Assembly: GCA_036677555.1 (NCBI GenBank)
Contig: JAVBWG010000011.1
Span: 14,177 to 78,176 of the forward strand
Source: Methanomassiliicoccales archaeon
Lineage (GTDB): Archaea; Thermoplasmatota; Thermoplasmata; Methanomassiliicoccales; UBA472
Direction: 5' to 3'
DNA length: 64,000 nt
Shown: positions 6,157-61,353 of the stretch, one piece after another
How positions within the stretch are numbered: the stretch's first letter is position 1
Layout: each line of letters starts with the position of its first letter
Made by a program: the position numbers and the translations under genes
The notes under the pieces: model-generated
What the model was told of the DNA's origin: nothing
What the model saw: only the letters and a program-made list of their open reading frames with translations
Databases searched by the model: none

Positions 6157-6197
6157 TATGACAAATAAAAAAGAAAAGGGATGGTAAAAGGTTTTGC

Positions 6198-25402: not shown

Positions 25403-26026
25403 TCAGATATGCCCCAGTGATCGCGACTGATGATTGCGTTGTACCAATCCATCGATCTCTGAAAGGGCGATATGCATGGTGGTGCCGGGATTCGGCGGTA
25501 TCGATTCCTCGGTGCCTTCGCTCCATGTCCTCAGCGCCCTGTCCATCGCACCCTGTCTCAAAGGACCCAGCAGGTCGTGGTAGTCCTCGGTCTTGTGATA
25601 GCCTTTTATATGGTCCTTCAAGGACCGATGAGCCTCTTGGCAAGAGATTGCCACTCCCACATCCTGGAAATGCATCAGGAACCAGAGCTCGAAACATGGA
25701 TTGGTCATTGCTAGCATAATCCCTGATCCATGGGCGAGCTTTAACGCCTGCGAAAGGTTCCCTGCGTCGTTCCCCTCGATGTCGAAAACGCATACCGCCA
25801 TATCCCCCTGATCGATATCGATCCCTTTCATATCCATATTCTCAACGCAGAGCTTGACCAATCCCAGTGCATCGGTGGGATGCGATTTGGGCACCACGAT
25901 CTTTACGGCGCTTTTCCGGCTCCTAAGGCCAGTGAAGTAGATGCGCTCGGTCCATCCTTCAGCCACCACCAAGACGGTGCTTGATGGATTTCTGTTGGCC
26001 ATCCGCCTTTTGGATGGATATCCCAC
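25403..26026 (-). CDS. RloB-like (TOPRIM-like) protein, AbiLii-like
   Basis: VLVVAEGWTERIYF and TNPCFELWFLMHF signatures. GTG 26026 overlaps the ATPase stop; alternative ATG at 26002. Confidence 0.75.
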   Translation of the reverse strand: MGYPSKRRMANRNPSSTVLVVAEGWTERIYFTGLRSRKSAVKIVVPKSHPTDALGLVKLCVENMDMKGIDIDQGDMAVCVFDIEGNDAGNLSQALKLAHGSGIMLAMTNPCFELWFLMHFQDVGVAISCQEAHRSLKDHIKGYHKTEDYHDLLGPLRQGAMDRALRTWSEGTEESIPPNPGTTMHIALSEIDGLVQRNHQSRSLGHI

Positions 26027-27291
26027 TAAACCACCTTGGCGGGGGTGATGGCAGGTATCGCCCCGTATCTACCGGCCTGATATGCCTTCAGTACATCACG
26101 GTCCTTCCTTTCTTTGAACTCCACGAGGGAGACCAGTTCCGAAACGCCCCTGTCTGGGGACCGTTCAACGAACCAGATCTGGTCCCGTCGTAGGTTGGCA
26201 AGGTCCAGGAATAGCTGGTCATGTGTATTGAATATCAGCTGCGCTCCCCTCTTGTTCTGCGATGGGTCGTGGAACAGGGAGATCAACCATTCGCTTATGT
26301 CATGGTGAAGCTTGGTGTCGAGTTCGTCCACGACCAACGTTCCTCCCCTTTGCAGTACGTCGATCATCGGTCCAAGGATATTGAACAGCTTCCTGGTGCC
26401 CTCAGACTCGAATATGTAAGGAAGCTGTTTTTCGATCTCCGCGCCGTCAGCCCCCTTCACCCGGTGAGTGAACCGAAGGTCCGTTTGCTTGGCCTCGTTT
26501 CCAAGGACTGTCATTACGCCCAGTACCTGTGGTGGGATGGTATCATAGAGACTTGCGATGGGAACCTTGCGGACCCTTCCATCGACCCCCGTGATACCCA
26601 GGTCCGCGATCTGCAATGCTTTGACCATCAGCGATTTGGCCTTCTTGTTGTGATTCATGAACTCGATCGCGCCTTCGGTCAATTGGGGAGAGTCCGTATT
26701 GTCAATAGCGACGAGGCGATCCTGAAACCATTCGAAAGCCGGAGTGGTAGCGGCGTAGTTGAACTGTACCGATGTTGAAAGATATAGCTGATTTTCCAAG
26801 GTTCGACGGGATATGACCTCCTGCTCGGTCCGATCACGGTTGAACTTGAATTCGCTCCCACGGCGGGAGAATATCATAGCCAGCTTTCCGTTTGGATAAT
26901 GGCTGAGCTTCTCCTCCACGATCTTGGCGTGATCGTAGCTCATTGAATATTCATACATGACCTGTTTGTGCAGGAATGATATGGTAAACCTGGTAGGCTT
27001 CTGGACACATGATTCGTCGAAGGCGAACGGTTGGTGGTTGAGACCGGTACCCTTTTGATGATTGTGCGATCGGACCACGAAGTTCCGGAGGATCGCCATT
27101 GCCAGGACCAGGTTGGTCTTCCCGGAAGCGTTGGCCCCGAAGATGACCGCGCTGTTAAGGACCTTGTCACCCTTCAGCATTGGATCTCGGGACAGATTGT
27201 CAGGGAGGCTCCTATCAGAAGAAGCCATCATGCTGAAGGTGGTTGGGTCGCGGAACGACCGGAAGTTCTCCACCGTGAACTCAAGGAGCAT
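26026..27291 (-). CDS. AAA_21-type ABC-like ATPase, AbiLi/RloA-like
   Basis: FTVENFRSFRD, Walker A GANASGKTNL, Walker B LVVDELDTKLHH, FNTHD. Confidence 0.8.
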   Translation of the reverse strand: MLLEFTVENFRSFRDPTTFSMMASSDRSLPDNLSRDPMLKGDKVLNSAVIFGANASGKTNLVLAMAILRNFVVRSHNHQKGTGLNHQPFAFDESCVQKPTRFTISFLHKQVMYEYSMSYDHAKIVEEKLSHYPNGKLAMIFSRRGSEFKFNRDRTEQEVISRRTLENQLYLSTSVQFNYAATTPAFEWFQDRLVAIDNTDSPQLTEGAIEFMNHNKKAKSLMVKALQIADLGITGVDGRVRKVPIASLYDTIPPQVLGVMTVLGNEAKQTDLRFTHRVKGADGAEIEKQLPYIFESEGTRKLFNILGPMIDVLQRGGTLVVDELDTKLHHDISEWLISLFHDPSQNKRGAQLIFNTHDQLFLDLANLRRDQIWFVERSPDRGVSELVSLVEFKERKDRDVLKAYQAGRYGAIPAITPAKVV

Positions 27292-36423: not shown

Positions 36424-37677
36424 CTATACCTCGTTGCTGTCGATGACCCCGATCACGTCCAGGGCGTCCACGGTGCAGGGCGCTCCCAACATCTCCGAGA
36501 GATTGGGTTGCGTTCTTCCCTGGTCGCCGTGCACGAACTCCTTCACGTAGGTTCCTGACTCGGTGCGCAGGCGCAAGGTCATCCGGTCATCCTGGAATTC
36601 CTCCAGGACCACATAGACGATGTAGCGCTCGCGTTTCAGGTCCGCGCGTCGGTGGGACACCCTAACGGGCGTCCGCTGGACTATACGGGTTCTGTTGAAC
36701 GTGCGAAGGACCTCATTGACTCTCTCCTTATTAACTTTGCCGTGAATGGATACCTGTACCCGGTACTCCTTGTCGTGCGCCGAATCCTTAACCAGGCGCA
36801 CCTCTTCCCGGTCCGAGGGGCGCAACTGCTCCACCTCCACAAAGCCTTTCGCCTTCTCGTTGATCTCCTGCTGAATGGCGGCGAGGTCCAGACCACGCAC
36901 CACAGGCCAGGATATCTCTATGACGAAAGGGCGCCCGGTGCCCAGCATCAACGCGTCTATGTCCTCCCGGCCCATCCCGTGGAAGAAATGCTCCTTCCCC
37001 TTGGCGTAGGGCAGGATGACGTCCCCGATCTGCTCCTGCACGCTGGTCTGGTACATCTTGCCGGTGTTGCCGCAGCGCGGGCATCCCTTTCCCTGACAGA
37101 CCCGGCATGGCCACTTGGTCTGCGGGATCTCCCGGGACAGTTTCCTGTAACGGCCGTAGATGAACAGCGGGGCCACGTCCAGCTCCACGTGGGCGAAGCG
37201 GGTGTCCACGAGAGCTACGACCTGCGGGTTCTTGAACTCCACCGCCTTGCCGTTCATTGCGTAAACGGCCTTGCCGATCTCGCGGTTCAGCTCGGACTTG
37301 ATGGGCTCGGCGTGCTCCTGCCCCACCAAGGACCATAGCTCCTCCTCCTTCGCCTGCACCGCTGGGTCCACCCTTGTGCCGACCAGGAAGTTATCGTACT
37401 GGACCTCCTGAAGCTTGAGCGCCACGGCCTCGGCGAAACGGGGGACCTGATCGAATATCTCGTCGCATAGCCAGCACCTCTCGTGCTTCATCGGGGCGAG
37501 CCCGCGGGACGACCGGTCGAGATCGATCAGCGCCCGCAGCTCCTCACCGCGTTTCTGATTGGTCGTGCCGGTGCCCACGTGGGCGAACGGGCGCCCCAGG
37601 CAGTGGTCGCACAGGTCGCGGTCCTGTGCCTTCAGGGCTTGCTCGAGAACTTCCTTCATGGTCGTCCGGCCTACCAA
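36424..37677 (-). CDS. pus10: tRNA pseudouridine(54/55) synthase Pus10
   Basis: N-terminal CDHCLGR zinc motif, CRVCQGKGCPRCGNTG, THUMP-like middle, VSHRRADLKRER catalytic region. Confidence 0.85.
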   Translation of the reverse strand: MVGRTTMKEVLEQALKAQDRDLCDHCLGRPFAHVGTGTTNQKRGEELRALIDLDRSSRGLAPMKHERCWLCDEIFDQVPRFAEAVALKLQEVQYDNFLVGTRVDPAVQAKEEELWSLVGQEHAEPIKSELNREIGKAVYAMNGKAVEFKNPQVVALVDTRFAHVELDVAPLFIYGRYRKLSREIPQTKWPCRVCQGKGCPRCGNTGKMYQTSVQEQIGDVILPYAKGKEHFFHGMGREDIDALMLGTGRPFVIEISWPVVRGLDLAAIQQEINEKAKGFVEVEQLRPSDREEVRLVKDSAHDKEYRVQVSIHGKVNKERVNEVLRTFNRTRIVQRTPVRVSHRRADLKRERYIVYVVLEEFQDDRMTLRLRTESGTYVKEFVHGDQGRTQPNLSEMLGAPCTVDALDVIGVIDSNEV

Positions 37678-37778
37678 TTCGTTCTAATTAAAACATTCCC
37701 TTGACACAAGATCGCCGTTTTGCCACTTTCGATCTACCTGGGAAAAAGGGGAATTATCCCAAATTCGTGCTCTGATCA

Positions 37779-37991
37779 ATGAGAGCTCATGCCGAACTCG
37801 TGAGTGATTATCTCAAATTCACTGACCTTAGATCCACTGCTCAATCGACCAAATCCATTGATCTGAAGTCGTTCCGGTTTTTCACTCCGACCACCCTCCT
37901 ACCATTGTCCATAATGCTGAAGAAAGGAAGCGTGGGCGGTCAATACGACATTAAGGTCCCCCTCCAACCCCGATGTCGCCCATTATCTTGA
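37779..37991 (+). pseudogene. Probable N-terminal part of the downstream GHKL ATPase gene, separated by a 1-nt frame break at a C5 run
   Basis: Frame-0 ORF ends ...QYDIKVPLQPRCRPLS*. Removing one C from CCCCC (37958-37962) reads ...QYDIKVPSNPDVAHYLELMTKEES and joins it to the ORF at 37996. Confidence 0.45.
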
Positions 37992-37995
37992 ACTG

Positions 37996-38580
37996 ATGAC
38001 GAAGGAGGAAAGCGTCGATGCACTGAACCGATCAACATACCTTCCTGTGGTCAGCATGCCCAAGGATGAGTCCAGAGGGCAGCCCATCCTAAGAAAAATC
38101 TTTCAGTTGAGCGGCGACCCGGGAGGAAGGAATTCCTTCAGATATCTGGTGGGGGAGCTTGTGGACAACATATATCAGCATTCAAGATTTGAGAACGGGC
38201 TGGTGATGGCTCAACAATATCCCAAGAAACGAACGATGCATATGTGCATCATAGACGATGGGATAACGATCGCCGGAAGCTTGAGGGAAGCGGGATTGAC
38301 ATTGGACGATGACCAAGCCATTGTGGATGCTCTACAAGGGACGTCCTCAAAGAAAGATCATGAGAGAGGAAGAGGATTGGGAACCGCCTTTGGTCTGACC
38401 ATCCTGGGGTATGGAGGATGTATGCTGGTGGTATCGGGGAGAGGTGCACTCTACAGAGGCCCGGACCGACAACAGAGATTTCAGTTGTCTGATAGGAATA
38501 AATATGAAGGAACTTTGATAAGCATAACGATCCCATTGACGAACAAGGAGGTGGACCTTTATGAGTATGCAAGCCTGTAG
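37996..38580 (+). CDS. GHKL/HATPase_c-type ATP-binding protein (RsbW/SpoIIAB-like fold)
   Basis: N-box ELVDNIYQHS, IIDDGITI, ERGRGLGTAFG. Confidence 0.7.
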   Translation: MTKEESVDALNRSTYLPVVSMPKDESRGQPILRKIFQLSGDPGGRNSFRYLVGELVDNIYQHSRFENGLVMAQQYPKKRTMHMCIIDDGITIAGSLREAGLTLDDDQAIVDALQGTSSKKDHERGRGLGTAFGLTILGYGGCMLVVSGRGALYRGPDRQQRFQLSDRNKYEGTLISITIPLTNKEVDLYEYASL

Positions 38581-38875
38581 AATAAACATCGCTGATGAAC
38601 TGTCTTCGGACCTGGCTTTCAGGGATATCGCCGCCTCTTTTATGGACAAGGTGGAATCTCAAAGGGATCGTGATGTGATCATAGATTTCCGGGACGTAGA
38701 ATCGATAACGCGTTCCTTCGCCCATGAGTATGTGAATCGGCGGGACATCACCAGCAAGAACATCGTAGAGGTTAATGTGCCTCCGGCCGTAACGCGTATG
38801 TTCGCGGTCATAAATAATTCGGAAAAGAGACCGCGGTTCGATGATCTGAAAAACGCTGAGCTGCTCAGCATCTAA
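38561..38875 (+). CDS. STAS-like domain protein (DUF4325-like)
   Basis: VIIDFRDVESITRSFAHEYV matches the DUF4325 core (x-lDF-gV-x-is-sSF). Overlaps the ATPase gene by 20 nt. Confidence 0.6.
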   Translation: MSMQACRINIADELSSDLAFRDIAASFMDKVESQRDRDVIIDFRDVESITRSFAHEYVNRRDITSKNIVEVNVPPAVTRMFAVINNSEKRPRFDDLKNAELLSI

Positions 38876-38928
38876 CCTTAGTGCCCAATGTCGTGAAAGG
38901 AACGTTAACAGGGCAAAGTGCTTAATCC

Positions 38929-39861
38929 ATGCCGGACATGCCGTTCCTCACTAAGCTCATGGCCGAGAACGGTGATATGCTCAAGCTCCTTCGGGAGCGG
39001 GGATACGACGCCCGGTCCATGTCCGTCTCCCACCTCGACGAGGTGCGGGAGGATGTGGAGGGGCTGTACGAGAAAGGTCAGCTGGACGAGGAGCTTTACA
39101 AGGAGTATCTTTTCCGGTTCAAGTACTTCGTTCCTGTCTCGTTCTCTGAGGCCAAGAGCGTGATCGTGGTCTCGGTGCCGCAGCCCACGTGCGAGATAAG
39201 CTTCAATGTCAAAGGTAGAAAGGTCCGGACCATCGTGCCGCCGACATACGCCAGGGCGGTCGATGTGGACATGGAGATCGTTGACCTTCTGGAGAAGGGC
39301 GACGGTAACGGGGTTCAGCTCATGAGGGCGATACTCCCGCACAAGACCCTGGCCGCTCGCACCGGACTGGTGCAGTACGGAAGGAACAACATAACCTACG
39401 TGCCTAGGTACGGGTCCTTCCACCGGCTGACCAGCTTTTTCACGAACCGGGAGCTGCCGGACGATTGGCAAGAGAGGAAGGTAATGGACCGGTGCGCGGA
39501 ATGCGGAGCCTGTGTCAAAGCCTGCCCGACCAAGGCCATCGATGACGACCGGTTCCTCCTTCACGGCGAGAGGTGCCTCACCTTCCACAACGAGATGCCC
39601 AATGAGAAGGCCTTCCCGGATTACATTCTAGAGGGAGCGCACAACGCGGTGGTCGGCTGCATGATCTGCCAGAAGGTCTGCCCTGAGAACGCTAAAGTCC
39701 GCAATTGGATGGTGCACTGCACCGAGTTCGACGAGGATGACACCTCGTACCTTCTGAAGGGCGATTTCTCCGGACCCCGGGCCAAGAAGATGGCCGCGAG
39801 GCTGGAGCCGCTGGGGCTGGAGCTGCAGCTGTTCCCCCGGAACCTGAAGGCGTTGCTGTAG
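38929..39861 (+). CDS. 4Fe-4S double-cluster protein, epoxyqueuosine-reductase/reductive-dehalogenase-like
   Basis: CAECGACVKACP and CMICQKVCP ferredoxin motifs after a roughly 190 aa N-domain. Confidence 0.6.
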   Translation: MPDMPFLTKLMAENGDMLKLLRERGYDARSMSVSHLDEVREDVEGLYEKGQLDEELYKEYLFRFKYFVPVSFSEAKSVIVVSVPQPTCEISFNVKGRKVRTIVPPTYARAVDVDMEIVDLLEKGDGNGVQLMRAILPHKTLAARTGLVQYGRNNITYVPRYGSFHRLTSFFTNRELPDDWQERKVMDRCAECGACVKACPTKAIDDDRFLLHGERCLTFHNEMPNEKAFPDYILEGAHNAVVGCMICQKVCPENAKVRNWMVHCTEFDEDDTSYLLKGDFSGPRAKKMAARLEPLGLELQLFPRNLKALL

Positions 39862-48780: not shown

Positions 48781-48880
48781 GCTCCCGTAGTGTAGTCCGG
48801 CCAATCATTCCGCCCTTTCGACATCGCTGAAAGGCGGTGGAAGGTAGGCGAAGACCCGGGTTCGAATCCCGGCGGGAGCA
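48781..48880 (+). tRNA. tRNA-Glu (anticodon UUC) with 25-nt intron at the canonical 37/38 position (about 48821..48845)
   Basis: GCTCCCG acceptor pairs with CGGGAGC-A. T arm is CCGGG-TTCGAAT-CCCGG. Anticodon arm is CCGCC-CTTTCG[intron]A-GGCGA. The intron folds as ATCGCT-GAAA-GGCGGT, and TTTC:GGAA forms a central helix flanked by 3-nt bulges. Confidence 0.8.
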
Positions 48881-48881
48881 C

Positions 48882-48887
48882 TTTTTT
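48882..48887 (+). terminator. Oligo-T tract after tRNA-Glu
   Basis: T6 begins 2 nt after the discriminator base. Confidence 0.45.
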
Positions 48888-48928
48888 ACCGTCAAAAAAT
48901 TGATATAGCCAGACGTCTTTTTCGTATC

Positions 48929-49525
48929 ATGGAAGGCCTGAAAAAAACGTCAGACAAAACGTCGGACAAGAGGGCTTCCGGCCGCCCTAATCAGGGCAAG
49001 ACGGAGACGATAAGGCAGCGGAAGATAGACGTTTATCTGCCTACGGTGGAGCTCATGCAGCAGTGGAAGAAGGCGGCCGAGGTCTCGGGCATGCCTCTGT
49101 CGAAATACATCCTGGAGGTGGTGGAGCAGCATCGCATGGGTGCGGTGAGGGTCACCATGCCCCCGGCTTTGCTTGAAGAAAAAGCCAACAAGCTGGAGAA
49201 GGAGCTGGCAGCCTTGCAGATGCGTTTCGATACGTTGAACTTGGCCTTCCACAACCAGGAGGTCGAGCTTTCTCGGCTGTCCAGTGCCTATCAGAGCGCC
49301 AAGGGCGGAAGCGTGGACGTCACTATGGTCAGGAGTTTGATCCAGGTATTACAAAGAGGTCCGAAGGGTGGCATGCACATAATCGACCTGATGGAATCGA
49401 TGCAGTTCGACAAGAACGACAACGACAAGATCAATAGATGGAGCGACGGACTGAACTTCCTTATGGACATAGAACTGGTTGGAAAGGACGAACGTGGGAA
49501 CCTGCGGTGGAAGGATGCGCGCTGA
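48929..49525 (+). CDS. Island-encoded hypothetical protein with ribbon-helix-helix-like segment
   Basis: KIDVYLPTVELMQQWKKAAEVSGMPLSKYILEVV (RHH-like), a coiled-coil middle, and a C-terminal wHTH-like region. Its end overlaps the integrase start. Confidence 0.5.
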   Translation: MEGLKKTSDKTSDKRASGRPNQGKTETIRQRKIDVYLPTVELMQQWKKAAEVSGMPLSKYILEVVEQHRMGAVRVTMPPALLEEKANKLEKELAALQMRFDTLNLAFHNQEVELSRLSSAYQSAKGGSVDVTMVRSLIQVLQRGPKGGMHIIDLMESMQFDKNDNDKINRWSDGLNFLMDIELVGKDERGNLRWKDAR

Positions 49526-50510
49526 AGTGAGCGAAAAGCGGGAGATGATGAGCAGCGCCCTTCTCGACCCGGACATGTTCGACTTGCTGGACAGCTTCAG
49601 GACCGAATGCAACCTGCAGGGAATGAGCAAGAGCTCAACGACCAGTTACGTTTCGTCGATGCGCATCTTCATGTTCTTTTTGATGTCCAAGCGCAAGACG
49701 GTCTTCGAGGTGGACAAGGACGTTCTGAAGTCGTACATTGACTACCTGATCAACCAAAGGAAGATCGCCTACCGGACGCTGAGCTATAACTTCTCCGCCC
49801 TGGCGGCGTTCTATGAATGGTTGCTGTTCGAGAACAAGATAAAGGAGAACCCGGTGCAGGCAGTTCGGAAACGGTATTTGAAGCGGTACAAGAACGGGGA
49901 AGGAATGCAGCAGGAAGGCCGCAAGCTTATCTCCGTGGAGGAGATGGCCATGCTCGTAAGGTCGATTGTCAGTTTGCTCGACCGGGCGATCGTGGTCACC
50001 CTGGCCAAGACCGGGGTGAGAAGAGGCGAGCTAATCAGTATGGACGTGGACGACATCGATTGGCAGAAGATGTCCATCAAGCTCAAGCCCACGGCCAAGA
50101 GAAGTAACCGGTTGGTGTTCTTTGACGAAGAAGCAAAGCAGGTACTGATGGAATGGATGAGCATGCGCCGATTGTACGCTCGTCCCGATTCTAAAGCGCT
50201 CTTCATTAGCCAGAGCGGTGGAAGGCTGAACAAGAACCATGTCTACGATATCGTGGTCCTGCACGCGGGACTGGTCGGTCTACACGACGCAAGCTCGGAC
50301 AAGCTGGATGAGCATTTCACACCGCACTGTTGCCGCCACTGGTTTACAACCCACCTAAGAAGGGCAGGGATGCAGCGTGAGCATATACAGGAGCTCAGAG
50401 GGGACTCGCGTCCGGACGCTATTGACATCTACTACCATATCGACCCGGAGGACCTCCGGTTGGCCTATCTGGCGTTCATACCGAAGTTGGGACTGTGTTC
50501 AACGAGGTGA
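49515..50510 (+). CDS. Tyrosine recombinase / phage-type integrase (XerC/D-like)
   Basis: SAM-like N-domain (YVSSMRIFMFFL). Catalytic residues GVRRGE, HCCRHWF (HxxR), IDIYYH (Tyr). ATG 49515 is preferred over the track start at 49479. Confidence 0.9.
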   Translation: MRAEVSEKREMMSSALLDPDMFDLLDSFRTECNLQGMSKSSTTSYVSSMRIFMFFLMSKRKTVFEVDKDVLKSYIDYLINQRKIAYRTLSYNFSALAAFYEWLLFENKIKENPVQAVRKRYLKRYKNGEGMQQEGRKLISVEEMAMLVRSIVSLLDRAIVVTLAKTGVRRGELISMDVDDIDWQKMSIKLKPTAKRSNRLVFFDEEAKQVLMEWMSMRRLYARPDSKALFISQSGGRLNKNHVYDIVVLHAGLVGLHDASSDKLDEHFTPHCCRHWFTTHLRRAGMQREHIQELRGDSRPDAIDIYYHIDPEDLRLAYLAFIPKLGLCSTR

Positions 50511-51214
50511 TATTATGGGAAAGAGCCAGAAGACAGGAAAAATAGTGAACGTTGACTAAGAGCAACTTGAGATCAGAGATGTCGTTTCTATTGAATAGTA
50601 TGATGTTCACGCGTATGAGAGAATTGAACTTAGCGATATCGATGAGCCCGAAGCGACCCGTCGCTGGGGTGCGGTCATCTGCTAGGGACAGAAATTCTTG
50701 TTCATCCAGAGTTCGACACTTGATCCAGTTAAAAAAATTATATGAGTTCGATAATGCTTTTTGCTAGATGCTACAGCGTCCAGCATTAGCTCATCAACCA
50801 AACCGTTTGAATTTCTCCAACATCAACTATCAAGGTCGGGAGAAACGGTGCTTTCGATGGGCAAAGGACTGAAAAAGCGGTTCTACTCGAACTTCAACGA
50901 TGTCAACAAGGCCTATTTTGGCTGAATATCTGTCGGGACGTAATAGAAAACACCCGATTTTGGGCGTTTTCGATGAAGTTCGGGCCTCAAAGGTCATCTG
51001 TTAAATTCTAAAACCAGTAAAATTTCGCTCGGTCAACTGCCTAAGTCGGGCATTGAGGTTGAGTTTAATAATCGAGAGGAAAGGGAAAGTGACGTTTAGA
51101 AATGATACGCGCAAATTGAAAAATTGGGATTTTATGCGCTCATAATTTATCAATATGTATAATATTAATTATAATTATATAACGATATTTTACATATCAA
51201 TTGAACCGTGTGGA

Positions 51215-51880
51215 CTAATTGGGTGGGAGGATTTGAACACCAATTTTTCTACATATAAAATACATGGCTAAAGCTTCATAGTTATTGAAAGTCTGTGATC
51301 CCATGGTCGATTCTGGCTCTTCCGAATTCCATTTATAATCAAAATCATGTTTCGCCATTCTATATAAAGTATTAATTTTCCATAAATATTGAATCAAATC
51401 GGAATTTAGCAGCTCCTTTTTTTCAATCGCACTAATTATTGTTCCCATTGGTTTTTTTTCGGCACCTTTAATTTGTTTACCAAATATTTTTTTTAAAACT
51501 TGTTCGATATGGGCACAGCTCATCTCTACCGAACTCCTAGATCTGGGTTCCCACCAAACTTGAATTGAATCCCTTAAAGCATACTGAAGAGGTCTATAGA
51601 TCGGGCGATCTTCAATATTGTATTTTCCAGTGAATCGTTTTCCATCTGAATAAAATAAATCTAGAACACCTTTTCCACCGATCTTATTTTCCAATGGAAT
51701 CATGATATTTTTAAGGATATCCATATCGGCAAATCGATCTCTTGAACCACAATTCAATCGCATTCCAGATAAGGATTTTCTTTTGTGGTACAATAATGTG
51801 ATAAGTACGCGATCTTCCCCATTAAATAATCTATCAAGAAGATAGTTAATTTCTTCATATTTTATTTTTGAATAGGTTAT
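51215..51880 (-). CDS. AT-rich small protein of unknown function (possible HEPN/DUF4145-like C-terminus); start codon uncertain
   Basis: The track ORF starts at TTG 51793. The frame stays open to 51888 and reads ...KYEEINYLLDRLFNGEDRVLITLLYHKRK. A GGAGGGG motif precedes an ATA codon at 51880. The C-terminal LIQYLWKINTLYRMAKHD is HEPN-like. Confidence 0.45.
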   Translation of the reverse strand: MTYSKIKYEEINYLLDRLFNGEDRVLITLLYHKRKSLSGMRLNCGSRDRFADMDILKNIMIPLENKIGGKGVLDLFYSDGKRFTGKYNIEDRPIYRPLQYALRDSIQVWWEPRSRSSVEMSCAHIEQVLKKIFGKQIKGAEKKPMGTIISAIEKKELLNSDLIQYLWKINTLYRMAKHDFDYKWNSEEPESTMGSQTFNNYEALAMYFICRKIGVQILPPN

Positions 51881-51976
51881 GGCAGCCCCTCCAATATTTC
51901 AATTTTATAAAGGAAAGAAATAACCGACAATAGACCGCTCCATTTAGAGATATATCTTTTCCAATTAGACTATGAC

Positions 51977-54900
51977 TTATTTTAGTTCTAATCCAGAGTT
52001 CACCTTTCTCAGCAGTTCATTGATTTTCGCTAGATCCTCTTTATTCTTCACTTTGGCGACATCCACTCGAAGGTGAAGCTTCAGATCGATATCGGGGTGT
52101 TGTCCGATGATGTCCGCGATAGCTTCGCTCAGGTTCTGCAAGTCTCCTATGGTGAGGTCCGCGTTTCCACTAAGGCCGCGTGGTCCAGGAACGGGTGTGG
52201 TTGATTTCGCAATCTTAAAAAATACGTTCTTAGATGCGCCCTCATCGCAGGGCCAAGAGGTCGAACCGGGAATAACTTCTATTAATCGCACCCGGACAGC
52301 CCCATCGATGGCCTCTCGTACGGTCTTCCACGGAAGATTGACCCGATGTTTTTTGGATAGAAAGAGGGCGACTGAATAGGCTGAAGCTTGTTCATCTTTC
52401 CACGCTTCATTCAAGTTTGGTGGAGTGATATCGAGGGTCTTGATCGGTTCAGGTGGCTGTCTGAGGCGAGCATCATCAGATAGCAAGCCGAGCGGGACCT
52501 CCTGTTCAAGCAGTGAAGCCGGTCCTGAGAGCATCCAAATATACCCCGCCTCGATGGCTTCCTTGATAGCGACTTCGACCACATCGGGAGGGGCCATTGG
52601 AATATGCATGCTTTCTTCAAAGCCGGATCGAGGCACCTTGATCGTCTTCGTCCCATCGAAGAGGTCCTTCACATCCTTAATCGAGATCTCTTCCCTCGAC
52701 CACAAACCGGTCAGTTCATCTCGGGCGAACATGCTTGATCGGATCGAAGTTAATTCCGCGAATTGTGGCAGGACAAGCTCCAGGCTAGGTTCCCTGAGAT
52801 CCGCCTCGCCAGGTGATTCTTTCCAAAAGGTCCTGATAGAGCGGTCTGGCCTCGTTAGGCGCAATACGAACTCACCCTGCAGCACGCCCTGCACCAAGGT
52901 GTCTAGGACCTCCTTACGCCTCAGCATCTTCGGTAGATGAGGGAACTGGGCGAACATACCAATGATATCGCTGACCCTTCTCGATTTGTCCCCCACTTTC
53001 CAGATGTCATATGGACCGTCAGGCAACAATGCCGAAGAGGTGATCGCCTGGTCCATGATCCTTGCCTTTTTCTCTGCCTTGATGGTTGCGAAGAGATCCG
53101 CACCGACGTTGATCTTGAAGGCGATGACATCGTTCTTCTCTGAAACGGTGACCACGATACAATATGCCTGAGCAATAGCCTCTGGCACGGACTTCTTAGA
53201 TCCATCCACATACGCGGAGACAGTGCTGAGGCGGCTCTCCCTGTCATCCCCTTTAACCTGTATTTGGGAGCGCACCTCATCCCAAGCGAGATAGTCCTTG
53301 ATCTTGTCCCGAGCACTTTGCAAAAGGTCCTTCGCCGGAGTGAGGATTATGATCGCGTTACGATATACGCGCGGTCGGTCCTCTGATGTCGTCTCATTGA
53401 TGAAGCGGGACGCCTCTGCGCTAGGCTTGCCGACCTCTGAAAAAGAGCGCGGCCCTAGAATTACTAGCTGGAGCTCACCGATATCCGCCACATCTGAAGG
53501 CCGTTCCGGCATATTGTAGACCTTAAGCCCAGAAGGTACGCCCGCCGTCAATGACCTGACACGCTTAGCGGTCTCATCGACCAGTCTGGATTCGACGAGG
53601 TCCGGAGATATCCGCACCAGCGCGTCGTCGTGCATGTGTTTGAGATTCGGCCTAGTGCCCAGCCTCCAGTTCTCCGGAAGCTCGTTCTTTCCACCGATGG
53701 CACTTTCCTCATCCAAGAACCAGGACTTATGGGTCCATGATAGCAGCGATTTCTGCAGATCGATCTTGTCCGGTCTGGAAGTACCGAGCATCACCATCAG
53801 ATCATGAGTTCGAGCTTTACGACCGATAGGTTGTGAATGTAAGAAGGTCGTGAAGACCGCCTGTTCCACCTCACGATGTCTGATTCCGGGCTGTTCGACC
53901 TGTATGCTCTTGGCCTTCTCAAGCTCGCCTTCGATTATCTTTGCCCATTCCTGCCTAGGGCCCTCAAAATCATCCGAGGCAGCGACTCCAGTCAGCTCCC
54001 TGGCTGCTTCGCTAAGTCCCTGCTTCTCTGGTTCTGCCAGGAAGACACTGACGCCGACCAAGGGTGAAGTGTCCCATTTACTCGCATCCCTCAGTGCTAA
54101 TGCGAACGTACGTAGAATACCCCTCGTCTTCTGGAAACCGTCCAAGCTGGTCCATTTGGTATAGAAAACATCCGTGAGTTCGGGGTGGAACGGATAGTTG
54201 TCGAGATATCGTTTCTCTGCGATCGCGCCTTCTTTCCGTGTCTCTTCGTCCAACTCAGCGATGCCTTTGAGAGCTTCGACCACCTGCGGTTTGAACGTAG
54301 AAGGATCCTTAATGGATTCGGGCTCAAAGAACCTGCGTCTGAGAATCTCCGCCACGTCGTCGCGACTGACCGGCTGCACACCTTCTTCTTTCTCACGACG
54401 GAAGATGTTGCCCATGTCATGGAGGAGCTCTTTACCCAGGTGGTCGCTCTTCTTGGGGTCAGTAGCTAAAAGCGATGCGATCAGTGCGCAGTTGGGTAGC
54501 TTGGTAGCGGCCTGTGTGAGACACTGGAAGAAGTTGAGAAGATTGTTCTTCCACTCGGGGTCCTGCGCCACCTTGACACGTGCGTACATCAAGACCTCGT
54601 CCAACAGAACGAGCGAGGCTAAACCATTCTTGGATGGAAGGGCGAGTATTTCCTTCAATAAAGGTTCGGCTGGATACTCCTCCCGCTCCTCCACTGATGA
54701 TGAGCCACTGAGGATCTTCAGCCCGGCGTCACCGCCGAGCTGGTAGGCCAGGATGCTCCAAGGATGTTTCAGCATGCGCGTCTTTCCATCTGGCCCCCTG
54801 GTCTTGACACCTACGAGCAGGTCGATCTTGTCAAAGACCAGAACGGCCATCCTAGCCCGGGGTAGTTGGACACCGATATGTGAACGAAAATCGAGAACGG

Positions 54901-55246
54901 AAGGTATGTCTGGAAGGCATTCTGGATCATTGAAGAGATGGTATAGGGTGATCAAGGTGTGGGTCTTGCCTCCACCGTAGGTGAGCTCCAACTGCCTTAC
55001 CGCCTTATCGTTCTGACCTGCCAACCGCAATGCCACGTCCTTGGCCAGTTCCCTCATGTTGTATGTCGGGTAAGTAAAGGCGAAGAATTTCTTGGGATCG
55101 CGGTATAAATCGGTACCTTCGTCCATTACAACATCATAGAGGTCGGCTGCGAACTGGGATAGGGAGAGGTCCCCATTCTTGAGGTCCTCACTCAACCTGA
55201 CAACCTGATGCCACGGCTTCCAATTGCTCTTGTTCCGCTCTTTCAT
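51977..55246 (-). CDS. DUF499-type P-loop ATPase (COG1483-like)
   Basis: FAADLYDV...FFAFTYPT...LELTYGGGKTHTL (Walker A), LVLLDEVLMY (Walker B). ATG 55246 has GGAGGT 7 nt upstream. Confidence 0.85.
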   Translation of the reverse strand: MKERNKSNWKPWHQVVRLSEDLKNGDLSLSQFAADLYDVVMDEGTDLYRDPKKFFAFTYPTYNMRELAKDVALRLAGQNDKAVRQLELTYGGGKTHTLITLYHLFNDPECLPDIPSVLDFRSHIGVQLPRARMAVLVFDKIDLLVGVKTRGPDGKTRMLKHPWSILAYQLGGDAGLKILSGSSSVEEREEYPAEPLLKEILALPSKNGLASLVLLDEVLMYARVKVAQDPEWKNNLLNFFQCLTQAATKLPNCALIASLLATDPKKSDHLGKELLHDMGNIFRREKEEGVQPVSRDDVAEILRRRFFEPESIKDPSTFKPQVVEALKGIAELDEETRKEGAIAEKRYLDNYPFHPELTDVFYTKWTSLDGFQKTRGILRTFALALRDASKWDTSPLVGVSVFLAEPEKQGLSEAARELTGVAASDDFEGPRQEWAKIIEGELEKAKSIQVEQPGIRHREVEQAVFTTFLHSQPIGRKARTHDLMVMLGTSRPDKIDLQKSLLSWTHKSWFLDEESAIGGKNELPENWRLGTRPNLKHMHDDALVRISPDLVESRLVDETAKRVRSLTAGVPSGLKVYNMPERPSDVADIGELQLVILGPRSFSEVGKPSAEASRFINETTSEDRPRVYRNAIIILTPAKDLLQSARDKIKDYLAWDEVRSQIQVKGDDRESRLSTVSAYVDGSKKSVPEAIAQAYCIVVTVSEKNDVIAFKINVGADLFATIKAEKKARIMDQAITSSALLPDGPYDIWKVGDKSRRVSDIIGMFAQFPHLPKMLRRKEVLDTLVQGVLQGEFVLRLTRPDRSIRTFWKESPGEADLREPSLELVLPQFAELTSIRSSMFARDELTGLWSREEISIKDVKDLFDGTKTIKVPRSGFEESMHIPMAPPDVVEVAIKEAIEAGYIWMLSGPASLLEQEVPLGLLSDDARLRQPPEPIKTLDITPPNLNEAWKDEQASAYSVALFLSKKHRVNLPWKTVREAIDGAVRVRLIEVIPGSTSWPCDEGASKNVFFKIAKSTTPVPGPRGLSGNADLTIGDLQNLSEAIADIIGQHPDIDLKLHLRVDVAKVKNKEDLAKINELLRKVNSGLELK

Positions 55247-55250
55247 CTCT

Positions 55251-56050
55251 TCAACCTCCAAAATTTGATAAATCCCTGGGTGCGCTTACCGCGCCACCCC
55301 TGGATATGATATGATTGCTGATGCTCTCCAACAAGCTTCTTTCCTCGTCTCCTTCCTTGGAGAGTTCTATTATCGCTTGCAGGATATGATGGAACGTTTT
55401 ATTCTTCAACAGCCCGTTCCCATCTAGATATTCATCGACCTTCGCCATGTCACCGTCTTTCCACAGATGCATGAGTTTATGCATTCGATCGATCATCGGA
55501 GCAGGCCGGCCATTGTTGTCCAAACCAAGAGTTTTACCAACGCGTTTGTTCCATTGTTTCAATCTAAGGGCGCTACTGGTGCCTTCCTCGAAGACATCCT
55601 CTTCTAGAACATCGCCTTCACCCTCATCCGGTTCTTCTATTCCTCCCGACCTGAGGAGTACATCATACTCACCTACGAGGGCACTATCCGAAAGGTCGCA
55701 GGATACCGCATAAAGAATGCAAGAACCGGCCGGTGCATCCCCAAATCCAAAGTCGTGACGATGCAACAAGTAGTAAGTTGTGATATTATCAAGGTCGCGG
55801 TCTCGTTCACCATCTTCACCTAGGACCCGTCCAACAACGAAGTCCATTACAATTCGTCTCACCTCGACGAGAAATTCTGAAACTGTCATGATTTGACCGG
55901 GATTGTCGGCCTTTTTTACAACTGAGTGCTTACTGTATGCCTCGAGCGCAGGACCCGTAGCAGCCCAGATAAAGTCAGGACCGCGAATTCCAGAATCCCA
56001 ATACTCACGAAGACGAAGCTGAATGTTAGAACGCATTTCTTCCAAGACCT
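55251..56050. repeat. About 0.8-kb high-identity direct repeat with 58321-59125 (3' ends of the two methyltransferase genes)
   Basis: The C-terminal 265 codons align without gaps until the acidic linker and have few substitutions (VLEEMRSNIQLRLREYWD...SISNHIISRGGAV). Confidence 0.8.
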
Positions 56051-58304: not shown

Positions 58305-58320
58305 CAACCAGCCCCTCCAT

Positions 58321-61300: not shown

Positions 61301-61353
61301 TTGAGGCAGAACCCTCTTTCTATCAATCTCGGTTTATCTTCATTCTCTGCCAT
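58321..61353 (-). CDS. DUF1156-type DNA methyltransferase with Zn ribbon (copy 1, promoter-proximal)
   Basis: Same motifs (DPFAGGGAIPLEA, CKNCRA...CPFCGKPG, VTDPPYYDA). ATG 61353 shares TGATG with the helicase stop. Confidence 0.85.
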   Translation of the reverse strand: MAENEDKPRLIERGFCLKQASINSVHEKSVRYGHISTLHIWPARRPLAACRAALIATLLPDPGDPDKRKELLERIGGKVVRVQKRTKKDGKEEVRFVEETEGGILHWGRESGPDLDYFREEIRKAYGGRAPKVLDPFAGGGAIPLEAMRLGCEATAIDINPVAWFIEKCTLEYPQRLAGKKVPLPDFILENKEFIDKFCEAQGIKPSAKMKKQSSLASFDGEKMVSGKSLETPLADLAWHVRAWGSWVLQKAKNDLEMYYHSSDGKPTVAYLWARTVKCKNCRASIPLMKTRWLCKKNGRQILLKINPDSVANRISYSIIECTPYEAAHLPKSETIGTKGGKGAWCPFCGKPGTVSMTMEDIQLALRDQYARGHFDSEMYAVVIESGDIREFRTPSQLEVESGTGLDINLLARFQDIPFGIPGEEIVEDSKGNTWCVQYGANTWGKQFTRRQLNALAAFVKYTREARILMDSSDVPKEWADAIMSYLCIAVDRTVDRSSAVCHWDVTRQNVSGTFSGYRMPIAWDYCETNPIGNKTGSYWNQLNIICHYIDHSLKSFSPNSKVRVDNQSAKQQFAEKYDVIVTDPPYYDAISYSLLMDFFYVWLRRTMWGFSDEFEGSFKEALAPKWNKDKNDGELIDDSSRFSGNRESSRIAYEDGMADVFSNCRESLTSNGRFVMVFAHKQPEAWETLVSAIVRSGFTVEASWPIQTEMGNRTRALSSAALSSSVWLVCRKRSNESKPGWDNKVLEEMRSNIQLRLREYWDAGIRGPDFIWAATGPALESYSKHAIVKKANDPGQLMTVTEFLIEVRRIVMDFVVGRVLREEGERDRDLDNITTYYLLHRHDFGFGDAPAGSCILYAVSCDLSDSALAGENDILLRSGGMEEPAEDEGEETEEDFIEEGTSSTFRLKAWNKRKSKNLGMDSNGRPAPMIDRVHKLMQLWKDGDIAKVDDYLVNNGLLKNKTFHHILQAIIELSKEGDEERSLLESISNHIISRGGAVNAPKGFSDFGG
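61124..61233. repeat. Partner copy of the 110-bp identical block
   Basis: See 58075-58184. Confidence 0.95.

What the first reader, a model, noticed from the sequence alone, without database searches (positions are those of the whole stretch)
37678..38928. Low-GC islet with a GHKL-type ATPase + STAS-like (DUF4325-like) gene pair of unknown role
Seen: between pus10 and a Fe-S protein gene the composition drops by eye. Two overlapping plus-strand genes appear, with a 20-nt overlap. The first protein has Bergerat-fold motifs (ELVDNIYQHS, IIDDGITI, GRGLGTAFG). The second has the DUF4325/STAS-like core VIIDFRDVESITRSFAHEYV. Established: HATPase_c kinases paired with STAS proteins form partner-switching modules in bacteria (RsbW/RsbV, SpoIIAB/SpoIIAA). 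Inference: no sigma factor exists in archaea, so the output must be different. The horizontally acquired look and compact two-gene layout are compatible with a conflict, defence or toxin-antitoxin-like module. This is speculative.
Basis: partly seen in the sequence, partly recalled or inferred. Interest (0 to 1): 0.55.

Follow-up and report, generated by a model that had tools for sequence, protein, structure and literature searches.

The report
Kinase plus STAS partner gene cassette
This low-GC islet in a methanogen-related archaeon holds a two-gene cassette, a kinase-like ATPase and its small STAS partner, related to a bacterial anti-phage switch described in 2026; it lacks that system's toxin gene, and its kinase gene is broken by a frameshift in this genome.

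Summary
The islet 37678-38928 has GC 0.48 against 0.59 for the first 48.7 kb (z = -4.2), and all four quoted motifs and the 20-nt overlap are present. Intact relatives are about 266 aa. Here an extra C in the run at 37958-37962 splits the gene into 37779-37991 and 37996-38580.

The pair is homologous to VapK/VapS of the VapKSC anti-phage toxin-antitoxin system (Chambers et al., EMBO J 2026). The K family profile aligns with VapK at 93% probability. The closest solved structure to the S family by sequence is VapS, and both are Pfam DUF4325. S folds as a STAS domain, and Ser52 is its only invariant residue.

Neither a VapC toxin nor a DNA-binding domain is present. The same two-gene unit occurs in archaeal prophages (psiM100 ORFB/ORFC), bacterial prophages, plasmids and 135 IMG/VR viral contigs.

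In Methanomassiliicoccales it sits at one fixed site in five lineages. It diverges much faster than its flanks and keeps low GC in all of them, so it is not a recent arrival.

Most likely it is a kinase-substrate partner switch used in conflict or stress sensing. Its output is unknown, and it is probably disabled here. Verdict: new variant of a known kind, moderate interest.

The parts
37678..37778 (+). Intergenic region between divergently oriented pus10 (36424-37677, minus strand) and the K gene. It presumably holds the cassette's promoter. AT-rich stretches lie at about 37684-37695 and 37751-37761.
   Evidence: Sequence read and ORF map. No promoter test for archaea was available. The sigma-70 scan does not apply to archaea.
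37779..37991 (+). 5' fragment of the K gene (VapK-like). Codons 1 to about 60 encode the first part of the N-terminal alpha/beta domain, including F34-F-T-P37-T38. After the extra C the frame runs out of register to a stop at 37989-37991.
   Evidence: The K-family HMM hits this ORF at E = 1.5e-14. It is 99% identical to residues 1-60 of the intact P0001.
37958..37962 (+). Run of five C that carries the +1 insertion (the frameshift). The 97.6-99.3% identical contigs L001-L003 encode the intact 266-aa protein; in the base-level alignment with L001 the run is four C.
   Evidence: Base-level alignment of the window against L001. It is the only frame-breaking indel inside a coding region across 14 kb. 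The other single-base indels are intergenic, and the one other coding indel is 3 nt.
37963..38580 (+). 3' part of the K gene. It covers the rest of the N-terminal domain and the whole GHKL (Bergerat-fold) domain: N box E126-x3-N130, G1 D159-x-G161, G2 R196-G-x-G199-L, and G244-T245. The mechanical ORF starts at ATG 37996.
   Evidence: weak HATPase_c hit. One search gives the invariant columns across 39 sequences. One search gives an AF2 model with pLDDT 90.3. One search shows Foldseek matches to DesK, RetS, GyrB and Hsp90 ATP-binding domains. One search gives hhalign to VapK at 93% probability.
38561..38875 (+). S gene. It encodes a 104-aa (or 102-aa from ATG 38567) single-domain STAS-like protein of Pfam DUF4325, homologous to VapS. 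Ser52 is invariant and Thr50 is Ser/Thr in 33 of 34 sequences; both sit at the N-terminus of helix alpha-2. The C-terminal tail (residues 90-104) is disordered and carries a semi-conserved basic K/R-P motif.
   Evidence: DUF4325 at E = 1.5e-6; conservation; best PDB sequence hit is 9z7o_A Escherichia VapS at E = 2.8e-4. AF2 pLDDT 81.7 and best structural match RsbS 6jhk with probability 1.0.
38876..38928 (+). Short spacer before the conserved host Fe-S gene (38929-39861, Pfam Fer4_16). No third cassette gene fits here.

Best explanation
The islet is a self-contained two-gene 'K-S' cassette.

K is a roughly 266-aa protein with an N-terminal alpha/beta domain, probably a degenerate STAS domain, fused to a GHKL ATP-binding domain. 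It is the same family and architecture as VapK. S is a roughly 100-aa single STAS (DUF4325) protein, the same family as VapS.

By analogy with the experimentally studied CapK/CapS and VapK/VapS pairs, K is most likely a signal-gated Ser/Thr kinase. Its substrate would be S, phosphorylated at the N-terminus of helix alpha-2 (Thr50 or the invariant Ser52). Phosphorylation would switch which partner S binds. The trigger may be single-stranded DNA, because the aromatic residue that VapK and CapK need for ssDNA activation is conserved (F34 here; W or F in 36 of 39 family members).

Unlike VapKSC, no toxin gene is present. Unlike CapS, S has no DNA-binding domain. So the output is either K itself, acting as a kinase or binder on other targets once it is freed from S (a decoy-substrate toxin-antitoxin or abortive-infection logic), or a target encoded elsewhere.

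The cassette is a mobile accessory unit carried by archaeal and bacterial viruses and plasmids. In this Methanomassiliicoccus-like lineage it is an old resident at a fixed site and evolves fast. In this genome the kinase gene is interrupted by a +1 frameshift, so the switch is probably disabled.

What is shown: homology, folds, intact motifs, obligate adjacency, a natural fusion, carriage on mobile elements, fast divergence and the frameshift. What is inferred: kinase activity on S, the ssDNA trigger and a conflict or defence role.
For: Homology to the characterised system:
- The K-family profile against a VapK taken from a genuine vapKSC locus (L053: VapK, then DUF4325 VapS, then PIN VapC) gives hhalign probability 93.2%, E = 3e-7, over residues 26-257.
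- In that alignment window F34 falls on VapK F54. The F54A mutation abolishes VapKSC defence (PMC13373217).
- The S-family profile's best PDB hit is VapS (9z7o_A, E = 2.8e-4). Both proteins hit Pfam DUF4325.

Folds and motifs:
- The K model has pLDDT 90.3 and matches GHKL domains. The ATP-binding motifs are invariant across 39 sequences.
- The S model has a STAS fold; the top match is RsbS with probability 1.0.
- Ser52 is the only invariant residue in 34 S proteins.

Physical and functional coupling:
- S lies directly downstream of K in essentially every locus. That is 77 of 77 testable IMG/VR loci, usually with a 4-nt overlap, and nearly all archaeal loci.
- A Nostoc plasmid protein fuses HATPase_c and DUF4325 in one chain.
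- A Burkholderia phage K homologue has a Pfam STAS N-domain.

Accessory and mobile character:
- The pair is found in psiM100 'inserted fragment IFa' as ORFB/ORFC and in Methanothermobacter proviruses with or without ORFD.
- It is found in a Bacteroides phage and in GBS prophages next to paratox.
- It sits in P2-like Burkholderia prophages beside toxin-antitoxin cassettes that swap between strains.
- 135 IMG/VR contigs carry a K relative.
- It has a patchy distribution over 34 archaeal species.

Evolution:
- K is 52-62% and S 54-64% identical between lineages whose flanking proteins are 68-97% identical (85-97% for the upstream pus10-side genes), and GC is low in all of them.
- K is independently inactivated in the window, L021, L040 and L042/L043.
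Against: - No kinase assay or co-fold was possible, so phosphorylation of S is inferred only.
- In profile alignments the phospho-acceptor of VapS (S48) and the equivalent position in a canonical STAS protein fall on Arg51, one residue before the invariant Ser52. The acceptor is therefore uncertain.
- The N-terminal domain of K is not significantly similar on its own to the S family or to the VapK N-domain (hhalign E = 0.15 and 0.11). Its STAS nature rests on topology, a motif series and one bacterial Pfam hit.
- No effector is encoded, so the output is unknown.
- Archaeal chromosomal neighbourhoods are mostly housekeeping, with few defence genes.
- In Methanomassiliicoccales the pair sits at a conserved site among housekeeping genes, which could point to a host function.
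- PADLOC gave no system-level hit. This is weak evidence, because VapKSC itself has no PADLOC model.
Confidence: 0.6

Rival explanations
1. It is a host stress-signalling module. On this reading K-S is an archaeal partner-switching pair domesticated for cellular regulation, acting on a host protein such as a transcription factor or an enzyme. It might be linked to the neighbouring Fe-S and radical-SAM genes, and it would have no role in conflict with viruses.
For: The pair sits at the same site between pus10 and the Fer4_16 gene in five Methanomassiliicoccales lineages. Most archaeal chromosomal neighbours are housekeeping or metabolic genes. No effector gene is present. CapK/CapS shows that such pairs can act as regulators.
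Against: - S has no DNA-binding domain.
- Outside this order the neighbours are unrelated, with no conserved third gene.
- The cassette is carried by many viruses and plasmids.
- It diverges several-fold faster than its flanks and keeps atypical codon usage.
- It has been inactivated repeatedly.
- Only 34 GTDB species representatives matched the family's motif pattern in the scan, spread patchily across archaeal phyla.
Confidence: 0.15
2. It works for the mobile element. On this reading the cassette benefits the virus or plasmid that carries it, for instance in lysogeny or induction control linked to DNA damage, in addiction (post-segregational killing), or as a decoy that neutralises host VapKSC- or CapKS-type immunity. 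The chromosomal copy here would be a stranded remnant.
For: The pair lies within the early/replication-side regions of proviruses. It lies next to integrase, cI or paratox in temperate phages. Relatives sense DNA damage through ssDNA, which is the classical prophage induction signal. The K gene has decayed in this genome.
Against: No viral genes flank the pair in Methanomassiliicoccales. The positions it occupies in P2-like and streptococcal prophages are accessory cargo sites rather than core regulatory sites (that these sites usually hold cargo is my own background knowledge). psiM100 and its relatives exist with and without the pair.
Confidence: 0.15
3. It is a non-kinase GHKL ATPase with a STAS adaptor. 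On this reading K hydrolyses ATP as a clamp or chaperone in the manner of MORC, Hsp90 or GyrB, and S only modulates it. The resemblance to anti-sigma kinases would be fold-level only.
For: The E-x3-N motif (E126...N130) is shared with GHKL ATPases. Foldseek also lists Hsp90 and GyrB domains among the matches. A PADLOC DrmA model matches K over an N-terminal stretch of that 1,750-position profile (E = 1.1e-8). The Pfam HATPase_c score is below threshold.
Against: Sequence-profile homology is specifically to VapK and runs end to end. VapK shows the same weak Pfam behaviour as K. S keeps an invariant Ser at the STAS phospho-acceptor turn. The best structural matches are kinase ATP-binding domains, DesK and RetS.
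Confidence: 0.07

Closest known systems
VapKSC toxin-antitoxin / anti-phage system (VapK kinase, VapS STAS antitoxin, VapC PIN toxin; Chambers et al., EMBO J 2026, PMC13373217)
   Same: K aligns with VapK across both domains (hhalign probability 93%). Both have only a sub-threshold Pfam HATPase_c hit and no Pfam STAS hit. The aromatic residue aligned with VapK F54 is conserved. S and VapS are both roughly 100-116-aa DUF4325 STAS proteins with a short C-terminal tail, encoded immediately after the kinase gene.
   Different: No VapC/PIN gene is found next to the pair in the window or in any of roughly 130 related loci. The S tail is shorter and unrelated in sequence. The conserved Ser is displaced by one position relative to VapS S48. 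This form occurs in archaea and archaeal viruses, whereas VapKSC was described only in bacteria.
CapK/CapS regulators of immune operons (same paper)
   Same: Both are a GHKL kinase with an internal STAS domain followed by a STAS-domain substrate gene. Both are associated with mobile or defence contexts. The aromatic residue proposed to sense ssDNA is CapK W68, and most archaeal K proteins have W at the aligned column.
   Different: K lacks CapK's N-terminal HTH domain, and S lacks CapS's winged-helix DNA-binding domain. No immune operon follows the pair.
SpoIIAB/SpoIIAA and RsbW/RsbV (RsbT/RsbS) partner-switching modules
   Same: Both pair a GHKL-fold Ser kinase with a single-domain STAS substrate. 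The S model superposes best on RsbS, and SpoIIAA is also listed among the matches.
   Different: Archaea have no sigma factor and no PP2C phosphatase gene is adjacent. K carries an extra N-terminal domain that SpoIIAB lacks. Sequence similarity is at fold level only.
psiM100 ORFB/ORFC (= MTH315/MTH316), the 'inserted fragment IFa' of the Methanothermobacter wolfeii prophage
   Same: It belongs to the same K and S families: 36% identity over 92% of K, with a 107-aa S directly downstream.
   Different: It lies inside a provirus rather than at a chromosomal site among housekeeping genes, and it is annotated only as hypothetical. In some relatives a 492-aa ORFD follows, and in others it does not.

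Membership tests
VapKSC | A kinase protein with a STAS-like N-domain plus a GHKL domain, homologous to VapK | tested here: met
   hhalign of the K family against VapK from L053 gives probability 93.2%, E = 3e-7, Q26-257 to T46-294. hmmsearch gives 33 bits. The GHKL half alone gives 94.8%. The N-domain alone is not significant (E = 0.11).
VapKSC | A STAS (DUF4325) protein with a short C-terminal region, encoded directly after the kinase gene | tested here: met
   The top hit of the PDB profile search is VapS 9z7o_A at E = 2.8e-4. DUF4325 hits both S and VapS. The genes are adjacent or overlapping.
VapKSC | A VapC-like PIN toxin as the third gene | tested here: not met
   A conserved host Fe-S gene follows after 53 nt. 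No conserved third gene exists. phmmer with VapC finds nothing in any locus.
VapKSC | An absolutely conserved Ser/Thr on STAS helix alpha-2 that is phosphorylated | tested here: inconclusive
   Ser52 is invariant (34 of 34) and position 50 is Ser/Thr (33 of 34), both at the start of alpha-2. However, VapS S48 aligns with Arg51. Phosphorylation cannot be tested with these tools.
VapKSC | A conserved aromatic residue needed for ssDNA activation (VapK F54, CapK W68) | tested here: inconclusive
   Window F34 aligns with F54, and the column is W or F in 36 of 39 sequences. The N-domain alignment is not significant by itself, and no ssDNA co-fold was possible.
VapKSC | Protection against phage; toxicity relieved by the STAS protein | not testable with these tools
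   This needs experiments.
CapK/CapS | CapK has an HTH-STAS-GHKL architecture | tested here: not met
   K is about 266 aa. The model shows one alpha/beta N-domain and the GHKL domain, with no HTH.
CapK/CapS | CapS has a STAS plus winged-HTH DNA-binding architecture | tested here: not met
   S is 104 aa: a STAS core plus a disordered 15-residue tail.
CapK/CapS | The pair lies directly upstream of an immune operon | tested here: not met
   Downstream lie Fe-S, radical SAM and ABC transporter genes that are conserved in relatives. The nearest defence genes are AbiL, 10.5 kb upstream, and Hma, 13 kb downstream.
Pfam DUF4325 (STAS-like) | A hit above the Pfam gathering score | tested here: met
   28.2 bits against a cut-off of 23.
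GHKL / Bergerat-fold ATP-binding domain | N box (E-x3-N), G1 (DxG) and G2 (GxGL) motifs, plus the fold | tested here: met
   The relevant columns are invariant. The model matches DesK, RetS, GyrB and Hsp90 ATP-binding domains with probability up to 0.99. The Pfam HATPase_c score is only 21.6 bits, below the cut-off of 26.4.
Anti-sigma / anti-anti-sigma partner switch (SpoIIAB-SpoIIAA type) | A sigma-factor target and a PP2C phosphatase partner | tested here: not met
   The host is an archaeon (pus10, L21e, Rpb4 and PolB context). No phosphatase gene lies next to the pair.

The most novel reading that the evidence does not exclude
The effector-less K-S pair is a complete two-gene immune or addiction system in its own right. 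It would be shared by bacteria, archaea and their viruses. A nucleic-acid-gated GHKL kinase would be held in check by a decoy STAS substrate and, when S is depleted or the kinase is triggered, would turn on host or viral targets. That would make it the first kinase-STAS partner-switch defence described in archaea, and it would assign a function to psiM100 ORFB/ORFC.
Probability: 0.3. Interest if true: 0.7.

Novelty: new variant of a known kind. Interest (0 to 1): 0.5.

Why it matters
GHKL-kinase/STAS pairs were shown only in 2026 to control bacterial immunity, as CapKS regulators and the VapKSC toxin-antitoxin system. This locus shows that the same kinase-substrate core also circulates as a bare two-gene cassette. 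Archaea have no sigma factors, and no such switch has been described in them, yet the cassette is present there, in archaeal proviruses, and in many bacterial prophages at cargo sites. If the two-gene form works on its own, it defines a simpler and much more widespread version of the system, and it raises a clear question about what S or K acts on when no toxin is encoded. The Methanomassiliicoccales copies are a natural series for studying how such cassettes persist and decay: the site is fixed, divergence is fast, GC stays low, and knock-outs recur.

Tried and rejected
- Defence-system models: PADLOC v2 gave no system hit for K or S, only a DrmA model matching the GHKL part. This is uninformative, because VapK, VapS and VapC themselves have no PADLOC hit. 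NCBIfam gave nothing useful.
- K N-domain tests: hhalign against the S family gave E = 0.15 and against the VapK N-domain alone E = 0.11. Neither is significant. Pfam at E <= 10 finds no STAS in archaeal K N-domains.
- PDB sequence search with the K profile gave only marginal DesK hits.
- Searching for VapS in the plasmid and phage collections and in IMG/VR found nothing usable. The metagenome scan succeeded.
- Signs of recent insertion: no flanking direct repeats beyond chance and no adjacent tRNA or integrase. Recent insertion is rejected, in agreement with the synteny.
- Sequencing error as the cause of the frameshift: considered unlikely, because every other indel against L001 over 14 kb is intergenic or a multiple of 3. 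It cannot be excluded without reads.
- Phase variation at a 5-C run: considered unlikely, because the run is too short. This rests on my own background knowledge.
- A conserved third gene: rejected. ORFD of psiM100 is absent from a related provirus that still has K-S.
- Defence-island enrichment around archaeal copies: only sporadic R-M, helicase or terminase neighbours among 132 neighbouring proteins.
- Literature: 'DUF4325' appears in only three papers, and none gives a function.
Full report
**1. The observation**

The islet 37678-38928 lies between pus10 (36424-37677, minus strand) and a Fer4_16 Fe-S gene (38929-39861, plus strand). Its GC is 0.482. The first 48.7 kb of the window average 0.594 (sd 0.027), so z = -4.2, and no other 1,251-nt window in that stretch is as low. 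Third-codon-position GC is 0.55-0.58 for the two genes and 0.71-0.88 for the neighbours.

All four quoted motifs are present. The overlap is 20 nt from ATG 38561, or 14 nt from ATG 38567. Pfam gives a sub-threshold HATPase_c hit for the first protein and an above-threshold DUF4325 hit for the second.

**2.

The first gene is broken. A search with the reconstructed protein returned a 266-aa protein that is 99% identical over the full length (P0001), and about 55 further relatives, most of them 250-290 aa.

In the window the first roughly 60 codons sit in ORF 37779-37991 and the rest in ORF 37996-38580, in a different frame. Base-level alignment with the 97.6%-identical contig L001 shows one extra C in the run 37958-37962.

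Across the 14 kb compared, this is the only indel that breaks a reading frame. The other single-base indels are intergenic, and the one other coding indel is 3 nt. I therefore take the frameshift to be a real mutation rather than assembly noise, although the reads would have to confirm it.

**3. What the two proteins are**

K:
- An alignment of 39 family members keeps the GHKL ATP-binding motifs invariant: E126-x3-N130, D159-x-G161, R196-G-x-G199-L and G244-T245.
- The AlphaFold2 model is confident (pLDDT 90.3). It shows an N-terminal alpha/beta domain (residues 1-111) followed by a Bergerat fold, whose best PDB matches are the ATP-binding domains of DesK, RetS, GyrB and Hsp90.

S:
- An alignment of 34 partners has a single invariant residue, Ser52. 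Position 50 is Ser/Thr in 33 of 34, and Arg51 and Phe53 are nearly invariant.
- The model (pLDDT 81.7, core above 90) has a STAS fold. The best match is RsbS (probability 1.0), and SpoIIAA is also listed. Helix alpha-2 starts at residue 51, and the tail (residues 90-104) is disordered.

**4. The closest characterised relatives**

A full-text search led to Chambers et al., EMBO J 2026 (PMC13373217). That paper describes two systems.
- CapK (HTH-STAS-GHKL) phosphorylates a conserved Ser of CapS (STAS-wHTH) when it is activated by ssDNA. This de-represses the adjacent immune operon.
- In the three-gene VapKSC system, VapK (STAS-GHKL) is proposed to phosphorylate VapS (STAS plus a short tail), releasing it from the PIN toxin VapC. 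The operon protects E. coli against phage Bas42.

The link to the window's pair is direct.
- The S-family profile's best hit among all PDB sequences is Escherichia VapS (9z7o_A, E = 2.8e-4), and VapS is itself DUF4325.
- I recovered a genuine vapKSC locus from a metagenome (L053: VapK of 302 aa, VapS of 116 aa, PIN-domain VapC of 203 aa).
- The archaeal K profile aligns with that VapK at 93.2% probability (E = 3e-7) over residues 26-257.
- VapK behaves in Pfam exactly as K does: a weak HATPase_c hit and no STAS hit.
- In the alignment, window F34 falls on VapK F54. That residue's mutation abolishes defence, and the authors equate it with the ssDNA-stacking W68 of CapK. The column is W or F in 36 of 39 family members.

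Two caveats apply.
- Taken alone, the N-domain is not significantly similar to the VapK N-domain or to the S family. Its STAS nature rests on the beta-alpha topology, a graded motif series, and a Burkholderia-phage homologue whose N-domain does hit Pfam STAS.
- In the profile alignments VapS S48 falls on Arg51, one residue before the invariant Ser52. The phospho-acceptor could therefore be Ser52 or Thr50.

**5. How the pair differs from those systems**

- There is no VapC. The next gene, 53 nt away, is a host Fe-S gene conserved in relatives.
- No conserved third gene exists across 45 loci.
- A VapC query finds nothing in about 130 loci.
- S has no DNA-binding domain, K has no HTH domain, and no immune operon follows the pair.

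The cassette is therefore a bare K-S pair. The two genes are tightly coupled.
- S directly follows K in nearly every archaeal locus.
- S directly follows K in 77 of 77 testable IMG/VR loci, usually with a 4-nt overlap.
- A Nostoc conjugative-plasmid protein fuses HATPase_c and DUF4325 in one chain. Such a fusion supports a physical interaction between the two.

**6. Where the cassette lives**

It is an accessory unit, often carried on mobile elements.
- psiM100 ORFB/ORFC inside the annotated 'inserted fragment IFa'.
- Methanothermobacter proviruses, with or without the following ORFD.
- Bacteroides phage BF1-TP2, gp43/gp42.
- Group B Streptococcus prophages, between the lysis region and paratox.
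- P2-like Burkholderia prophages, between the attachment-side host genes and the portal gene, next to toxin-antitoxin cassettes that differ between strains.
- A Halobaculum plasmid.
- Francisella phage KIRK, where a DUF4325 gene (Fhv_0047) follows a 293-aa hypothetical protein, in the table rows between the cI-type repressor and the integrase (PMC7924643).
- 135 IMG/VR contigs.

Among GTDB species representatives, a scan keyed on the family's conserved motif found the archaeal type in 34 species, all archaeal and scattered over many phyla. An exhaustive profile search counts 430 clusters (at 50% identity) at E <= 1e-30 and 2,244 at E <= 1e-10.

Around the archaeal chromosomal copies the neighbours are heterogeneous and mostly housekeeping. 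Only sporadic restriction-modification, helicase or terminase genes appear. A defence-island association is therefore not demonstrated for the archaeal copies.

**7. History at this locus**

The pair occupies the same pus10 | K-S | Fe-S site in the near-identical JGI contigs and in four more distant Methanomassiliicoccales genomes.

| Measure across these lineages | K-S pair | Flanking genes |
|---|---|---|
| Protein identity | K 52-62%, S 54-64% | 68-97% (upstream genes 74-97%, Pus10 85-93%; Fe-S gene 68-92%) |
| GC | 0.43-0.49 | 0.58-0.62 |

The low-GC 'foreign look' is therefore an old and persistent property of a fast-evolving resident, or of a site where alleles are exchanged. It is not the mark of a recent insertion. 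No flanking repeats, tRNA or integrase border the islet.

K has been inactivated independently in several genomes:
- by the frameshift in this window;
- by a TCG-to-TAG change in L042/L043, relative to L050;
- by multiple lesions in L021;
- by a frameshift in L040.

A Bacteroides copy also has a truncated K. The lesions in L021 and L040 could be assembly errors rather than real mutations; I could not check this. Recurrent loss is what one expects of a dispensable or costly accessory gene.

**8. Most likely mechanism**

Shown:
- homology to VapK and VapS;
- a GHKL fold with intact ATP-binding motifs;
- a STAS fold with an invariant Ser at the canonical phospho-acceptor turn;
- obligate adjacency of the two genes, and a natural fusion;
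- carriage on mobile elements and rapid divergence.

Inferred:
- K phosphorylates S at Ser52 or Thr50 when triggered;
- the trigger may be ssDNA produced during infection or DNA damage, given the conserved aromatic residue;
- phosphorylation changes which partner S binds.

Because no effector is encoded, I see two possible outputs. In the first, S is a decoy substrate or inhibitor that restrains K, and K acts on other proteins when S is depleted or overridden. That would be a self-contained toxin-antitoxin or abortive-infection logic. In the second, S or K acts on a target encoded elsewhere. I favour a conflict or stress-sensing role (overall confidence 0.6).

In this genome the frameshift removes the first 60-70 residues from the GHKL-containing ORF, including F34. 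The switch is probably non-functional here.

The rivals are a domesticated host regulator, a function that serves the mobile element, and a non-kinase ATPase. Each is set out in the structured fields with the result that would refute it.

**9. Verdict**

The pair is a new, effector-less variant of the CapKS/VapKSC kind of kinase-STAS switch, present in archaea and on many viruses, and it is not a categorically new system. Its interest is moderate. It extends a mechanism described only in 2026 to archaea and their viruses, and it gives psiM100 ORFB/ORFC a plausible identity. However, function is untested, the output is unknown, and this particular copy is damaged.

Noticed in passing
window 25403-27291 (minus strand): A second low-GC islet (about 0.50) holds an AbiL abortive-infection pair: AbiLi at 26026-27291 (PADLOC E = 9.7e-92) and AbiLii at 25403-26026 (E = 3.7e-21). 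It lies between ribosomal protein L15e and PolB. The near-identical contig L001 has an amino-acid permease gene at this position instead.
   Followed up: partly
window 48781-63878: A tRNA gene (48781-48880, 100 nt, probably intron-containing, found by Rfam but not by ARAGORN) is followed by a tyrosine integrase (49479-50510) and a lower-GC island. The island encodes an Hma defence system: HmaC/DUF499 at 51977-55261, two DUF1156 HmaB methylases at 55251-58418 and 58321-61356, and an HmaA SNF2 helicase ORF at 61353-63878 that matches only the C-terminal two-thirds of the HmaA model. Identity to L001 falls off from about 47 kb onward.
   Followed up: partly
L042 2481-3284 and L043 2154-2957, compared with L050 2704-3507: The K gene carries an in-frame TAG where the close relative L050 has TCG (Ser). 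L021 and L040 have frameshifted K genes, and a Bacteroides contig (L055) has K truncated to 150 aa. In the four archaeal cases the downstream S ORF is intact; in L055 a 117-aa S gene is still called. The kinase gene is lost repeatedly.
   Followed up: partly
L011 (psiM100, NC_002628) 4983-7604: The 'inserted fragment IFa' of prophage psiM100 consists of the K-S pair (ORFB and ORFC, equal to MTH315 and MTH316) plus most of ORFD (492 aa, no Pfam hit). A related Methanothermobacter provirus (L006) has K-S without ORFD.
   Followed up: partly
L014 1914-3158 (Nostoc cf. commune plasmid pANSO36B): A 414-aa protein fuses the K architecture (HATPase_c at residues 146-250) with a C-terminal DUF4325 domain (residues 327-388). 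It is a natural K-S fusion on a conjugative plasmid.
   Followed up: partly
window K protein, residues 121-234, against PADLOC model PDLC02567: The GHKL part of K matches positions 140-253 of a 1,750-position DISARM DrmA model (E = 1.1e-8), which is a better score than Pfam HATPase_c gives. This suggests that some DrmA proteins carry a related N-terminal GHKL module.
   Followed up: no
L059-L061 (Burkholderia pseudomallei P2-like prophages), about 6090-9000: The K-S pair stays constant next to the portal gene while the neighbouring toxin-antitoxin cassette differs between strains: BrnT/BrnA in two, and a pair with a dnstrm_HI1420-domain gene in the third. This looks like a cargo hotspot.
   Followed up: no
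window 39905 and 42524: Relative to L001 the window has a 1-nt deletion in the spacer before the radical-SAM gene and an in-frame 3-nt deletion at 42524. The indel pattern looks filtered by selection, which argues that the assembly is accurate.
   Followed up: partly
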